Assembly (NCBI GenBank): GCA_030295235.1
Contig: AP026162.1
Span: 2,232,001-2,296,000, forward strand
DNA from: Fistulifera solaris
Lineage: Eukaryota
DNA: 64,000 bases
Reading direction: 5' to 3'
Shown one piece after another: positions 2,876-25,993 of this stretch. A program made the translations under genes and the position numbers. Under the pieces are notes generated by a model. That model did no database searches and was not told the DNA's origin. It worked only from the letters and a program-made list of their open reading frames with translations. The first letter of the stretch is position 1; every line of letters starts with the position of its first letter.

Positions 2876-5201
2876 ATGTCCGGAAGTTCAACACAATCTA
2901 CCGTGCAATCCTTTTCAATAATTTTGACAATACTGTTAGCATGTTGGACACCAAGCTCTTCCTTCGTTCCTAAGCATGATGGTACAAGGCGAAGTTCAGA
3001 GACTAGTTGCGTAGAAGGCCCTAAAACGCCACTGCATTCATCTTTCGTCCGGTCGATTGACGATAGATTTAATCAGGGAAATTGGGAGAATAATAAGCAA
3101 AAGTTCAAACGGAAAAGAATACCGAAAACAGAAATCGACGCACGGCAGCTTCGACAGCAACGTGAAGAAGAATACGAACGGTTAGTTACAAATGCGGATA
3201 GCGTGCCGAGTATATGGAATTTCGAAAGTCTCTTTCCTTCACCTATCATCGACGAAGAGTCCGTCGATCGTGACTTGTTTGAAATTCAACGGCGAGATCG
3301 CAAGAAGGAGGAAGAAAGAAATGCAGGTGGTCGCTCGAAAATAGTGTCGAATCCTTACGCGGGAGAGACAACGAATCCGTTTCTCCGTTTAATGTGGAGT
3401 GAACCGACAATTAAGACTCGTGAAACTTCTTCGTCCGCTATGACTTCCCTAGCGAACGAAAACGCCACAGCGGCGCTGATCTCAAGCAAAATAGCCAATA
3501 CGACAAGCGCACGGGTTGATCGAAGTTTGACGCGGATGGTCGAAGACCGAATTTATGGCTTCCGTCGAGGTGCATCCGGCGATATTCGATACCAAACGTC
3601 ACTGATGGGTGACGGTGCAGTTCAATATCGTGAAGGAGTGAGACTAGGAAATGCTTTACCAATTAATGCAGACCGTCTGAACTACATGGCAAAGAAAGAG
3701 ATGAAGAAAGGGCGTGTGGAGGAAGCCGAAGAGCTGTACGAACGAGCCGTGGAAATCGATCCTCGGGATGGACGAGCATATCTTGGACTCAGTCGGTGCG
3801 CGCAGCGTCGACAGGACTTCAAGCTCGCCCGCGAGTGGTTAAATCTAGGCATTGCCAACTCAGCCTCTACCTTCAACGGAAATCCAGATCGTGGGGCAAA
3901 TCCGTTTCTGCTTCAGGCACTAGGTTGCTTGGAAGAGAAAGCAGGACAACTGTCGCAAGCTGAATCCTTGTATACATCAGCTGTTAGATCAAGGCCGTCC
4001 CATGCCGCTGGTTGGGTAGCTCTTGCTCAAATTCGCACACGCAAGTTGGGCCAGAGCGTTGGGGCAGGTCGATCTTGTTTCGAAGCCGCCGAGCGTGAAC
4101 TGAAGGCATCAGGACTACCTCAGTCTTCGCATGTCTACACGGCATGGGCCGACCTGGAACTAAAGAAAGCCGGCGATGCCCGAAGAGCCAAAAAACTCCT
4201 CAAAATGGCATTGGAAATCGACCCAAAATGCTCTGTTGGCTGGTTGCAATTGGGTATGCTTGAAAGTGATTTGCAGAATTGGGATAAAGCGGAAGAATGC
4301 TTTGAAAACGTTTTAACGTTTGATCAACGTAATTCTCGTGTGTTACAAGCATATGCAATAATGGAAACGAAACGACCTGATGGGAACAGTAGGAAAGCTA
4401 TTGGACTCTTTGAACGTGCTTTGAAAGCCAATCCTCGCGATGCTGGTGTATTGCAAGCCTATGGCTTGTACGTTGCGAAGTTGGGTGACATCAAATCAGC
4501 AAGAGAATTGCTTTGGAAGGGCACAGAAGTTGATAAACGTCATGCGCCCATTTGGCAAGCATTGGGTGTACTAGAAACCCGCAGTGGAAACCCCGAGGAA
4601 GCTCGTAGCATATTTCAGCAGGGCATCTGGGCTTGCGCACAATTAACAGGTTGTAAATCAGGCGGACACAATTGTGCTCGATTGTGGCAGGCATGGGGCG
4701 TACTAGAAGCTGAAGAAGGGAACCATGCTGCTGCACGACGCTGTTTCAACCGTGCCTTGGATGCGGATAGTAGGAATGTCCCTGCCATTACAGCCTGGTC
4801 ATCTATGGAAGAAAAATTGGGCAATCGCCAAGATGCTCGCGCAATCTACGAAAGGGCTTTGCCTCGCTTTTCAGCCGGATCCGAAAGCAAGAAAGCTCTT
4901 TGGAGGAACTACGAGCTGATGGAACAACGTGCCGGGGATACTGCGGCCGCCCAACGCGTATATCAAAGAGCTATACGAGAGGTGATAAGCTTCGAAGAAA
5001 CTTCCGTTCCCGATCAGAAAGTTGATGCCAATAATAGGCCTCAACCGGAAACTACGACGTCTTCACGAAACAAGAGGGAAAAAAGAAGTTGTTCGGTGGA
5101 ACGGCGGTGGGGGAGAGGTTTGGTTAAACGATAGAGCTATAGAGGCCAAGATCCCTTCAGAGAAGAGGGAAAGCCGATACGAAAAAACAATGAAGTCATA
5201 A
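2876..5201 (+). CDS. Plastid-targeted TPR/HAT repeat protein (Mbb1/HCF107-like RNA maturation factor)
   Basis: Signal peptide ending 'SSSFVP'. Many HAT/TPR repeats ('LYERAVEIDPRDGRAY', 'LWQAWGVLEAEEG'). Apparent 1-nt frameshift near 5075-5085; the other frame runs to TAA at 5201. Confidence 0.75.
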
Positions 5202-16086: not shown

Positions 16087-18314
16087 ATGCCGAAGACGAA
16101 AGGAAAAGAAGAGACACCAAAAGAGACCCAACAATCTTCTGCCGATGATTCATTTCAAAAACTACCCCTCTCGAGTGGGGTGCTCGAATACATCCAAGAA
16201 CAGAATTTCACTCGTATGACACCGGTACAAGCTGCTACCATTCCGCTTTTCCTTGCTTCCAAAGATGTGGCCGTTCAAGCTGTCACAGGCTCCGGCAAAA
16301 CTCTAGCTTTCCTTATTCCTGTCGTTGAAGCGATTTTGCGCAAAAGTTCAAAAAACATCAAGCGGGTGCTTTGATTTTGTCGCCGACCCGCGAGTTGGCG
16401 CAACAGACTCACGCTGTAGCTGCCGCACTGTGCAGGCACTGTCAACTAAAAGAACCGTTGCTGTTGGTGGGTGGCTCTTCGGCCTCCAGTAGTTTGGCTT
16501 CGACGAGACCCGTGACCGCCGACTTGCAGGCATTTCAAGAAACAGGTCACGACATTTTGATCGGAACGCCGGGCCGTGTAGAGGACATTTTGACCAAGTA
16601 TAGCGTCATCGATACGTCGGAACTTGAGTATTTGATTTTGGATGAGGCTGACGTTTTGTTGAATTTGGGCTTTGCGATAACGCTGCAAAGTATTCTGAAG
16701 AGGCTACCGAAAATGAGACGGACGGGTCTTTTCAGTGCTACCACGTCTTCGACAAATGCGAGTTTGAAGGAATGGACGGGACGAGCTGGTTTGCGGAACC
16801 CGGTTTGGATTGATGTAGCAGTAACGACCAATGTCGCTGAGACGCGAACGGCCCAGGCGACCCCTACATCACTCACCAACTACTTCTTAGTGTGTCCACT
16901 GGACGAGAAATTGTCACGACTAGCGGCTTTCCTGCAAGACCATAGCACCGAAAAGGTCATTGTGTTTTGTCTCACTTGTGCATGCGTCGATTTTTATGGC
17001 AATGCTTTGAAAGTTTTGCTCCCAACTGTATCGATTGAGCCATTGCACGGGAAAATGGTGCAAAAGCGCCGTGAAAAGTCCATGGAACGATTTCGAAGTG
17101 ACGCCGAAGGAGGAACGTTACTTTGTACGGATGTGGCAGCTCGGGGGTTGGATGTATCAAACGTGAACTGGGTGGTGCAATTCGATGCCCCACAAGATCC
17201 GGCCTTTACGTTCACCGTGTAGGTCGATCGGCGCGAGCTGGAAAATCTGGAAATAGTCTATTGTTTTTGACGAGGAAAGAAGAAGCTTATGTGGACTTGT
17301 TAAAAATGAGAAAGGTGCCTCTTTCTCCCTTGCCTTCATCGGAACGATGCTGTCCCTTCATTTATGAAAATGTAGAAGAAGGGAATGACAAGGGAGCAAC
17401 AAAACGCAAGACAGACAAATCAAACGAAGAGGAACCGACCAAACGCACTATACGTTGTAATGATGGAAGTGAAATTGAAGACATTTTTCCCAAAGTAAAG
17501 GAGCTTGTCCTGAGCGATCGCGATTTTTCTCGAAAAAGGCACAAAGGCCTTCACGTCGTACATTCGTGCTTATAAGGAACATCATTGTTCTTTCATTTTC
17601 AGGTAAGTCATAAATCGTCGACTTTATAAACGCATGGACGTGCCATTGTGCATTCACTGAACGCCTCCTAAAATGGGAGACGATGTAGTGTTTGGGCTGT
17701 GCCGTAGAGTGCAATACGATGTTGGACCTGCCGATGATCATCAGTCATTGCTTGTTCCGGGTAGATATCCCTGTGTGTGACGTTCTCAGACTCAAATAGG
17801 AACCCAATGCCCCAACACTTCTATTACTTACCAATACGTCTGTCTTATATTGGTTCGCAGGTTCGCCTCCTTGGATTTAGGTTTACTAGCTACATCGTTT
17901 TGCCTCTTACGGTTGCCCAAAATGCCGGAGCTGCAAGATGCTTTACAGAAACACAAGGGTAAATTGCCGCGTTTTCAACCCGCGGGTCGTGAGATTGATA
18001 TTTTTGCCATTCCCTATCGTGATAAAGTGCGCGAAACCGCTCGCCAAAAGCGTTTAATGCAGGAGCAGGAAGCCGGAGGAAAGAATGCGAAACAGTTGCA
18101 AGCCGAACAGAAAAAGGCAGAAAAAGAGCGAAAGTTGCAAGAACGACGCCAAAAGGCCATGGAAAAGGGTCGAAATCCTGACAAGAAGCGTGGTCGGAAT
18201 GCTCGTATTGTAGATGAGTGGGACGATCTGGCGAAAGAGGAACGATTGTACAAAAAGTTACGGAAAGGCAAAATCACCAAGGAGGATTTGGAAAAAGAGC
18301 TCAATGAAGATTAA
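16087..18314 (+). CDS. DDX55: DEAD-box RNA helicase DDX55/Spb4 (intron 17603-17860; several frameshifts)
   Basis: Q motif '[10 protein letters not shown]', 'AVTGSGKT', 'SPTRELA', 'DEAD', 'RRTGLFSAT', 'HRVGRSAR', and '[18 protein letters not shown]...[10 protein letters not shown]'. Confidence 0.93.
17647..17820 (+). ncRNA. Intronic box H/ACA snoRNA candidate with U17/snR30-like architecture
   Basis: Lies in a 258-nt intron. Branched 5' hairpin (TGCATTC 17649/GAGTGCA 17707), H box ATACGA 17714-17719, an internal hairpin, a 3' pocket hairpin (GGGTA/TGCCC lower stem), and ACA at 17815-17817. Confidence 0.6.
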
Positions 18315-19429: not shown

Positions 19430-19547
19430 GCTGAAATTGAAATTCTCTGTCTCTCGTCATGGTCGACGTTACGGAGTATTTATTTTCTCTCGCACACATC
19501 AAAAGCACACAGAATGCCTGTTTGACCAGAAAGATACTAGGACCGAA

Positions 19548-20136
19548 AACACCGAAATTCCAGAATATCTGGAAATTGCACTTTCTTTCGTTATGATCCA
19601 TAACACAGCTTCCAGAATTCCTGGAACGCGCACATCATTCCGGTAGGATCCCAAACACCGTGTTCAGAATTCTTGGAACTTGCACAGCATTTCGGTACGG
19701 TAGGATCGAAAAAGCTGGTCCAACACCAATTCCAGAATTTCTGGAAATTGTTCTTTCTTTCGTTATGATCCAAAACACAGTTACCAGAATTTCTGGAACG
19801 CGCACATCATTCCGGTAGGATCCCAAACACCGTAATCAGAATTCTTGGAACTTGCACAGCATTTCGGTACGGTAGGATCGAAAAAGCTGGTCCAGAATTT
19901 CTGGACCACCACAGAATTTCTGTATGATCGGAAACACCAATTCCAGAATTTCTGGAAATTATTGCTTTATGATCCATAACACAGATCCCAGAATTTCAGT
20001 AATGCGCACATCATTCCGGTAGGTTCCCAAACACCGTGTTCAAATTTTTTGGGACATGCACCGCATTTCTGTAGGATCAAAAAGCTGGTCCAGAATTTCT
20101 GGACCATCACAGAATTTCTGTATTACCCAAAACACC
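19548..20136. repeat. Higher-order tandem repeat: three ~172-204 bp units built from ~45-bp monomers with a palindromic CCAGAATTTCTGG core
   Basis: The block (C/T)GCGCACATCATTCCGGTAGG recurs at ~19627, ~19799 and ~20003. Many CAGAA(T)TTCTG cores are present. Confidence 0.9.
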
Positions 20137-25921: not shown

Positions 25922-25993
25922 TCCGCGATAGTATAGTGGCTAGTATCCCCGCCTGTCACGCGGGAGACCGGGGTTCGATTCCCCGTCGCGGAG
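25922..25993 (+). tRNA. tRNA-Asp(GTC)
   Basis: Acceptor stem TCCGCGA/TCGCGGA, anticodon arm CCCGC-CTGTCAC-GCGGG, T-loop GGTTCGATTCC, followed by a T-run terminator. Confidence 0.97.

What the first reader, a model, noticed from the sequence alone, without database searches (positions are those of the whole stretch)
17647..17820. Hidden multi-hairpin H/ACA RNA resembling U17/snR30 in the DDX55/Spb4 intron
Seen: this intron is 258 nt, versus ~60-110 nt for most others here. It folds by eye into a branched 5' domain, H box ATACGA (ANANNA), an internal hairpin, and a 3' hairpin ending in ACA. The 3' pocket strands are ATATCCCTG (17765-17773) and AACCCAA (17801-17807), the latter 7 nt before ACA. 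Established: U17/snR30, required for 18S processing, has this layout with motifs m1 AUAUUCCUA and m2 AAACCAU, m2 lying 7 nt from ACA. Ribosome-biogenesis genes often host snoRNAs. Inference: either a divergent U17/snR30 with altered 18S-pairing motifs or an unassigned pseudouridylation guide. Each motif differs from consensus at 2 positions, so identity is not certain.
Basis: partly seen in the sequence, partly recalled or inferred. Interest (0 to 1): 0.7.

Follow-up and report, generated by a model that had tools for sequence, protein, structure and literature searches.

The report
Diatom snoRNA aimed at catalytic-centre uridine
An intron of a diatom ribosome-assembly gene hides a real, uncatalogued H/ACA small nucleolar RNA that is probably not U17 but a guide for a uridine in the ribosome's catalytic centre that is also modified in humans and Arabidopsis, where the papers found name no guide for it.

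Summary
The RNA is real, but probably not U17/snR30. A ~189-nt H/ACA RNA (17632-17820) lies in the spliced 258-nt DDX55/Spb4 intron. It is 180/186 identical in the genome's second gene copy. It recurs in the same intron in 23 of 49 metagenome loci, and its stems covary (0/500 shuffles). Contigs confined to it occur in three metatranscriptomes. Rfam has no match. The m2-like strand is AACCCA in all 23 distinct sequences, never AAACCA, and the host 18S shows no compensating change. Read as an ordinary guide, the 3' pocket ranks host 28S U2862 first of 1274 uridines (6-8 + 2 bp). U2862 corresponds to human 28S Psi4502 (Psi4532) and Arabidopsis Psi2945 in the peptidyl-transferase centre, for which the papers read name no guide. 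The internal hairpin carries a 7-9-nt perfect complement to 28S 2891-2902, about 30 nt downstream, kept in three shifted registers. It probably compensates for the 2-bp arm. Pseudouridine at diatom U2862 and both pairings are predictions. A residual U17-m1 likeness and an invariant AAAA loop remain unexplained.

The parts
16087..18314 (+). Host gene DDX55/Spb4 (DEAD-box helicase), with this intron near its 3' end
   Evidence: Translation; homologues named DDX55/SPB4 with PF00270, PF00271, PF13959
17603..17860 (+). 258-nt spliceosomal intron hosting the RNA, falling inside the Arg codon of ...[11 protein letters not shown]
   Evidence: GT..AG; 258-nt skip in run X3; same position in diatom-like and plant-like DDX55 loci
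17632..17820 (+). Predicted mature H/ACA snoRNA, about 189 nt; ends inferred
   Evidence: Conserved block; metatranscriptome contigs confined to 17639-17813; homologue alignment
17632..17712 (+). Long unbranched 5' hairpin; about 73-135 nt in homologues; no shared pseudouridylation target found
17669..17676 (+). Conserved apex YAAAAYGG of the 5' hairpin (AAAA and GG invariant); partner unknown
   Evidence: closing stem covaries
17714..17719 (+). H box ANANNA
   Evidence: First A in 22/23, second A in 23/23, last base A 16, G 6, C 1; changes in L002 and in runs X5 and X7 fall on N positions
17724..17757 (+). Internal hairpin between H box and 3' hairpin
17737..17745 (+). Accessory antisense element (core UCAGU), 9 Watson-Crick pairs with host 28S 2894-2902
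   Evidence: 7-9 pairs in all 23 homologues, in three registers
17759..17812 (+). 3' hairpin: lower stem 17759-17762/17809-17812, pocket, upper stem from 17770/17800
   Evidence: Covariation
17768..17769 (+). Left guide arm UC, pairing 28S G2864-A2865
   Evidence: UC directly below the upper stem in all 23
17801..17806 (+). Right guide arm AACCCA, pairing 28S 2856-2861; first base 14 nt from the ACA box
   Evidence: Invariant with fixed spacing in 23/23
17815..17817 (+). ACA box, 43 nt before the intron end
   Evidence: ACA 20, AUA 3 of 23

Best explanation
A diatom-wide, intron-encoded box H/ACA snoRNA that guides pseudouridylation of one uridine in the 28S peptidyl-transferase centre (host 28S U2862, the last U of GGGUUUAG; human Psi4502/4532, Arabidopsis Psi2945). 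Shown: spliced host intron, conserved boxes, covarying stems, fixed 14-nt pocket-to-ACA spacing and the sequence complementarity. Inferred from H/ACA biology: the RNA is trimmed out of the intron lariat and binds Cbf5/dyskerin, Nop10, Nhp2 and Gar1. Inferred: in early pre-60S particles the 3' pocket pairs 6-8 bp 5' of the target but only 2 bp 3' of it. The loop of the internal hairpin pairs 7-9 bp with 28S 2891-2902 about 30 nt downstream and supplies the missing affinity. The 5' hairpin has no shared guide function; its AAAA(Y) apex may touch 28S 2884-2888 or bind a protein.
For: (1) Among 1274 uridines of host 18S, 5.8S and 28S, U2862 scores first for all 23 distinct homologue pockets. U2, U5 and U6 score at most 14 against 20-24. 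9 of 300 shuffled consensus pockets reach the consensus score anywhere. (2) The pocket boundary is fixed independently of the target: the first upper-stem pair varies as A-U 10, C-G 5, G-C 1, U-A 1, mismatched 6. (3) U2862 lies 32 nt after the A-loop U, like human Psi4470 to Psi4502, and neighbouring modified positions map to the right bases. The human test substrate for 28S-Y4502 in the supplement of PMC6984369 has the same 18 letters as host 28S 2851-2868. Human Psi4502 is 100% modified (PMC6182160 Table 1). Arabidopsis U2945 equals human U4502, guide 'nd' (PMC8351944 supplement). (4) The internal-hairpin motif gives a Watson-Crick run of 8 in 17, 9 in 5 and 7 in 1 homologue with 28S 2891-2902. 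It is the only such site in 5182 nt for 17 of 23, and 78 of 20000 shuffled 14-mers do as well in that 48-nt region. The 5 sequences that lost the 3' AG gained four pairs on the 5' side, and 2 others shifted the other way. (5) Precedent: a weak pocket of SNORA57 works when helped by strong pairing elsewhere in the RNA (PMC8522698 section 8).
Against: No pseudouridine map of diatom rRNA was seen, and yeast lacks this modification. The left arm has only 2 bp. The window's own pocket scores 20, which 56 of 300 shuffles reach. The 23 sequences share the same invariant letters, so 23/23 is not 23 independent tests, and all were compared with the host's rRNA only. I noticed the 28S matches by eye before testing them, so the chance figures are post hoc. 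The left strand keeps A/U-rich bases (AUUC in 16 of 23) that 28S does not explain. In human cells an 18-nt fragment lacking the downstream site was modified at 4502, so the human activity does not need the accessory pairing and could be a stand-alone enzyme.
Confidence: 0.72

Rival explanations
1. Non-catalytic or mainly scaffolding snoRNA: it clamps 28S domain V at 2855-2861 and 2891-2902 during early 60S folding, and the 2-bp arm never presents U2862 productively.
For: Both pairings are conserved while the left arm is minimal. Yeast snR37 combines modification with scaffolding in the same region (PMC13015370 sections 9 and 12). The host gene is a ribosome-biogenesis helicase.
Against: The geometry is that of a productive guide (distal pairing, two unpaired bases, 14 nt to ACA). 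The exposed U is a known pseudouridine in human and Arabidopsis. UC is kept at the pocket top in all 23.
Confidence: 0.13
2. Divergent U17/snR30 that docks on 18S ES6 for 18S processing.
For: Same layout: long pocket-less 5' hairpin, internal hairpin, 7 nt from motif to ACA (PMC7601244). The left strand gives 5-6 contiguous pairs with rm1 in 16 of 23 homologues. YAAAAUGG can pair 8-9 nt with 18S 810-818 beside rm2. No canonical U17 was found in the genome.
Against: m2 is AAACCAU in all 14 species of the review's table, and changes are said to be always compensated in 18S. Here it is AACCCA in 23/23, with uncompensated host rm2 and at most 4-5 pairs. In the window itself m1/rm1 gives 3 pairs. 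U17 pairs in the basal pocket, whereas here the invariant bases are distal. The 7-nt spacing is just the general 14-nt guide rule. The RNA is absent from this intron in 10 Thalassiosirales-like loci, although it could have moved.
Confidence: 0.07
3. Orphan H/ACA RNA with another target (U1, U4, spacer RNA, mRNA); the 28S matches are coincidence.
For: Short motifs and a post hoc match. The invariant AAAA apex has no convincing partner (24 UUUU sites in rRNA). U1, U4 and the 5' external spacer were not scanned.
Against: Two separate motifs match within 40 nt of each other (about 0.05 expected), with register-shifted compensation, and the site is a known pseudouridine elsewhere.
Confidence: 0.06
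4. Not an RNA gene: a conserved intronic cis-element acting on the DDX55 pre-mRNA.
For: The folding z-score is unremarkable. Expression evidence is low-depth contigs only.
Against: H and ACA boxes with fixed spacing, covarying stems, and contigs limited to the element without exon sequence in three studies.
Confidence: 0.02

Closest known systems
Canonical eukaryotic box H/ACA pseudouridylation guide snoRNAs
   Same: Hairpin, H box, hairpin, ACA; intronic; distal bipartite pocket 14 nt from ACA that exposes a U plus one base
   Different: Extra internal hairpin with an antisense loop; only 2 bp on one arm; long 5' hairpin without a shared target; no Rfam family match
U17/snR30 (SNORA73; Rfam RF00045, RF01271)
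   Same: Long 5' domain, internal hairpin, m1-like left strand, 7 nt between right motif and ACA
   Different: Right strand AACCCA, not AAACCA; no compensation in host 18S rm2; distal rather than basal conservation; best partner is 28S
Yeast snR37 (PMC13015370)
   Same: Enlarged H/ACA RNA with extra helices, acting on the peptidyl-transferase region of the large rRNA
   Different: snR37 guides U2944 (human U4521) with its 5' hairpin and its 3' hairpin has no pocket; here the 3' hairpin guides a site 11 nt downstream and the extra contact is RNA-RNA pairing
Human SNORA71, SNORA22 and SNORA57 (PMC8522698, PMC6984369)
   Same: SNORA71 was proposed for 28S-4502 and SNORA22 for 4501; SNORA57 shows assisted activity of a weak pocket
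   Different: SNORA71 was inactive on 4502 in yeast tests and SNORA22 hits the neighbouring unmodified U; no sequence homology to this RNA was detected by Rfam models

Membership tests
Box H/ACA snoRNA | H box ANANNA in the hinge after the 5' hairpin | tested here: met
   ATACGA at 17714; A22/A23/(A16,G6,C1) of 23 homologues
Box H/ACA snoRNA | ACA box after the 3' hairpin | tested here: met
   ACA 20, AUA 3 of 23, at an invariant distance
Box H/ACA snoRNA | Hairpins supported by covariation | tested here: met
   7 of 12 pairs with changes on both sides; 91.7% of cells paired; covariation score 0/500 shuffles; slid controls 26-44% paired
Box H/ACA snoRNA | Discrete stable RNA ending 3 nt after ACA | tested here: inconclusive
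   Contigs of three RNA studies lie wholly within 17639-17813, two stopping at 17813; contigs cannot show ends or strand, and no DNA run was laid
Box H/ACA snoRNA | Binds Cbf5/dyskerin, Nop10, Nhp2 and Gar1 | not testable with these tools
   Needs immunoprecipitation
H/ACA pseudouridylation guide | Distal bipartite pairing around U-N, 14-16 nt from the box | tested here: met
   28S U2862, 6-8 + 2 bp, 14 nt; the left arm is unusually short
H/ACA pseudouridylation guide | Target is pseudouridylated and depends on the guide | not testable with these tools
   The equivalent site is Psi in human and Arabidopsis; no diatom map seen
U17/snR30 | m2 AAACCA(U) forming 6 bp with 18S rm2, or compensated | tested here: not met
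   AACCCA in 23/23; 4 bp in 17 and 5 bp in 6 against host rm2, which is canonical in 3 of 3 copies read
U17/snR30 | m1 AUAUUCCU forming 6 or more bp with 18S rm1 | tested here: inconclusive
   3 bp in the window; across homologues 6 bp in 5, 5 bp in 11, 4 bp in 4, 3 bp in 3
U17/snR30 | Match to Rfam SNORA73 or snR30 models | tested here: not met
   No hit at this locus or in homologues; these models found no U17 anywhere in the genome, so sensitivity is low
U17/snR30 | Internal hairpin and long pocket-less 5' domain | tested here: met
   also seen in other H/ACA RNAs
U17/snR30 | Required for 18S processing | not testable with these tools
   Needs depletion

The most novel reading that the evidence does not exclude
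This is the surviving diatom branch of an old, unrecognised guide lineage for the conserved catalytic-centre pseudouridine (human Psi4502/4532, Arabidopsis Psi2945). It works as a three-point clamp: pocket on 28S 2855-2865, 5'-hairpin apex on 2884-2888 and internal loop on 2891-2902. It would both modify and chaperone domain V, and its signature would lead to the missing human and plant guides among orphan H/ACA RNAs.
Probability: 0.25. Interest if true: 0.82.

Novelty: new variant of a known kind. Interest (0 to 1): 0.63.

Why it matters
Human 28S Psi4502 (Psi4532) is fully modified and sits two bases from the methylated U4500 in the peptidyl-transferase centre. A 2021 paper states that no guide has been assigned to it, and a 2021 Arabidopsis table lists none for the equivalent site. 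If the reading holds, this is a natural guide for that site with a searchable signature (UC at the pocket top, AACCCA, 8 nt, ACA, plus an AUCAGUAG loop). It also shows how a pocket with a 2-bp arm, which standard target predictors would reject, can be rescued by a loop-borne accessory antisense element. That suggests why some orphan sites and orphan H/ACA RNAs have not been matched.

Tried and rejected
Rfam: the whole window at gathering cut-offs gave only a tRNA. E-value scans of the locus, of 20 homologue loci and of two homologues alone gave only chance-level hits. My first pocket scan demanded at least 3 bp on each arm and found nothing convincing; it missed the 6+2 site. Compensatory change in 18S ES6: absent. 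Canonical U17 elsewhere in the genome: RF00045 best E 6.3, RF01271 none, strict pattern 4 hits against 9 in the control, looser pattern 48 hits against 18. I folded 29 of the 30 loci returned for those 48 (the script found no match near the centre of one). None was convincing, and the best-looking one (L083) reads like coding sequence. This is inconclusive, because the assembly has homopolymer errors. 5'-hairpin guide scan: the best sites were shared by only 10 of 22 homologues under loose rules, so no target is claimed. U2, U5 and U6 as pocket targets: rejected. 28S 1499-1508 and 18S 810-818 as partners of the AAAA apex score best but could not be tested for conservation. A telomerase template reading was considered and dropped: the window has GAACCC, and the motif sits in a guide pocket. 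Whole-region duplex folding was uninformative. The host-exon tree is the quick version only. Earlier scan findings held no look-alike.

Full report
Observation. A contig of run X3 (RNA by guess) skips exactly this intron. The host is DDX55/SPB4 by homologues that are mostly diatom proteins. Two corrections: the 5' domain is one unbranched hairpin from 17632 to 17712, so the RNA is about 189 nt. Also, folding energy alone is not significant (z -1.08 for the whole; -0.79 to -1.89 for the domains).

It is a real RNA. The genome has a second copy of the gene (L002, about 91% identical overall). Across 17632-17817 the copies match at 180/186, against 18/29 and 34/43 in the intron flanks and 114/143 at third codon positions. 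A motif search in the genome found only these two credible copies among 15 matches. Of 8 runs listed I laid 4. The three metatranscriptomes, from three studies, gave four contigs lying within 17639-17813 with no exon sequence; two stop at 17813. Depth is low (2-3.8), contigs show neither ends nor strand, and no DNA run was laid, so this is a hint of a free RNA, not proof.

Homologues. A pattern for the exon end plus splice donor returned 49 metagenome loci. 23 carry the RNA: all 19 with a long intron and a found acceptor (246-412 nt), plus 4 with no acceptor found. 10 diatom-like loci have 74-118-nt introns without it. 10 plant-like loci have 76-83-nt introns without it. 4 plant-like loci have no intron there, 1 was unresolved (L023) and 1 was truncated (L056). 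A covariance model built from these sequences recovers the same 23 loci, the window and L002 at 66-112 bits, and finds nothing in the other 26 loci. After dropping two near-duplicates (L037, L042) and adding the window and L002, 23 distinct sequences remain. In a quick tree of the host exon, RNA-bearing loci sit beside Nitzschia, Fragilariopsis, Seminavis and Chaetoceros proteins, and the short-intron loci group with Thalassiosirales proteins (weak support, careful search unfinished). H box, ACA/AUA and the spacing AACCCA-8 nt-ACA are fixed. Twelve pairs in three helices give 91.7% paired cells and a covariation score of 0.499 (0/500 shuffles; slid controls 26-44% paired; the count of doubly changed pairs was reached by 42/500). 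Rfam has no family for it.

U17 test. I read parts 2-3 of PMC7601244, part 2 of PMC2664660 and passages of PMC12095548. U17 is defined by m1 and m2 pairing 6 bp each, in the basal pocket, with 18S rm1 and rm2; m2 is the same in all 14 tabulated species. Host rm1 and rm2 are canonical in the 3 copies read, of 12 listed. The right strand is AACCCA in 23/23 and gives 4 bp (17 sequences) or 5 bp (6) with rm2. The window's left strand gives 3 bp with rm1. In favour of U17: 16 of 23 left strands give 5-6 bp with rm1, the 5' apex can pair next to rm2, and no canonical U17 was found in the genome. I leave it at 0.07.

Target. Covariation places the pocket top at UC on the left and AACCCA on the right: the next pair is A-U 10, C-G 5, G-C 1, U-A 1, mismatched 6. 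Scanned as a standard guide over 1274 uridines of the host's mature rRNAs (coordinates), every homologue ranks 28S U2862 first, with 6-8 + 2 bp. U2, U5 and U6 score far lower. 9 of 300 shuffled consensus pockets do as well anywhere; for the window's own weaker score it is 56 of 300. The 23 are not independent and were all tested on the host's rRNA. By offset from the A-loop, U2862 is human U4502, listed as 100% Psi in Table 1 of PMC6182160 (passages). PMC8522698 (passages and section 8) states that no guide has been assigned to 4502, that SNORA71 failed in yeast tests and that SNORA22 hits 4501. Supplement rows of PMC6984369 agree and give a substrate identical to the diatom sequence. A supplement row of PMC8351944 equates Arabidopsis U2945 with human U4502, guide 'nd', no yeast site. 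PMC6793436 (passages) reports Psi2945. The numbers 4532 and yeast 2955 follow by offset from PMC13015370.

Accessory pairing. The internal hairpin carries UCAGU in all 23. With its flanks it forms a perfect run of 8 (17 sequences), 9 (5) or 7 (1) pairs with 28S 2891-2902, about 30 nt past the target. For 17 of 23 this is the only such site in 5182 nt, and 78 of 20000 shuffled 14-mers match this well in that region. Registers shift: 15 sequences extend the core by one base 5' and two 3'; 5 (including the window) by four 5' and none 3'; 2 by none 5' and three 3'; 1 by none 5' and two 3'. In many homologues the motif fills the hairpin loop; in the window it overlaps the stem end. I spotted this match by eye first, so the chance figures are post hoc. 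From recall, 2891-2902 is the 3' strand of helix 73, the root of domain V. The AAAA(Y) apex could pair with GUUUU at 2884-2888 (compatible in 21 of 23), but such runs are common and I make no claim.

Mechanism. Shown: spliced intron, conserved boxes, covarying stems, complementarity. Inferred: release from the lariat, H/ACA RNP assembly, docking on early pre-60S rRNA through pocket plus loop, and conversion of U2862 (0.72). SNORA57 is a precedent for a weak pocket assisted by pairing elsewhere. snR37 is a precedent for an enlarged H/ACA RNA that also scaffolds this region, but it uses another hairpin and site (abstract, sections 9 and 12 of PMC13015370). Against: no diatom pseudouridine map was seen, the arm is only 2 bp, and in HeLa cells an 18-nt fragment without the downstream site was modified, so the human activity may differ or be a stand-alone enzyme.

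Novelty. Searches found no description of this RNA and no later assignment of a guide to Psi4502/4532/2945; one search returned no papers. The library lacks most subscription journals, and supplements of modification-mapping papers that I did not open could hold an assignment. Passages of PMC4247016 (Phaeodactylum small RNAs), PMC7671301 (Ostreococcus snoRNAs; its supplement target table was not opened), PMC3177221 and PMC2655684 did not describe it. Earlier scan notes list other intronic snoRNAs in this genome with other targets; I did not check them. Verdict: a new H/ACA family, a variant of a known kind, interest 0.63.

Noticed in passing
window 16087-18314 (near 16345, 17208 and 17524-17537): The DDX55 reading frame shifts several times at homopolymer runs, and the second copy L002 has different shifts. 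Both X3 contigs lack the extra base at 17524, so these look like assembly errors, not a pseudogene.
   Followed up: partly
L015, L024, L033, L034, L046, L047, L051, L054, L058, L062: Plant-like DDX55 genes have a short (76-83 nt) intron at the same codon position as diatoms, suggesting an ancient intron that gained the snoRNA in diatoms or lost it elsewhere.
   Followed up: no
L016, L022, L032, L036, L038, L039, L040, L050, L052, L053: Thalassiosirales-like loci keep the intron but at 74-118 nt with no RNA within about 1.5 kb: a lineage loss or relocation, and a natural test of whether the 28S site is modified there.
   Followed up: partly
L061: A very divergent DDX55 (long branch, 69/144 identical) carries the same RNA; it may lie outside or at the base of diatoms.
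   Followed up: no
window 19500-20000: Degenerate direct and inverted repeats built on a CCAGAATTTCTGGAA-like unit; similar words turned up on other contigs.
   Followed up: no
window 25922-25993 (+): A tRNA gene with a GUC anticodon (Asp), the only Rfam hit in the window.
   Followed up: no
G000 contigs C15, C16, C45, C46: At least 12 scattered 18S rDNA copies in both orientations with slightly different scores, rather than one tandem array.
   Followed up: no
whole genome G000: No canonical U17/snR30 was found by two Rfam models or two motif patterns, although it is described as ubiquitous and essential; the diatom U17 remains unidentified.
   Followed up: partly
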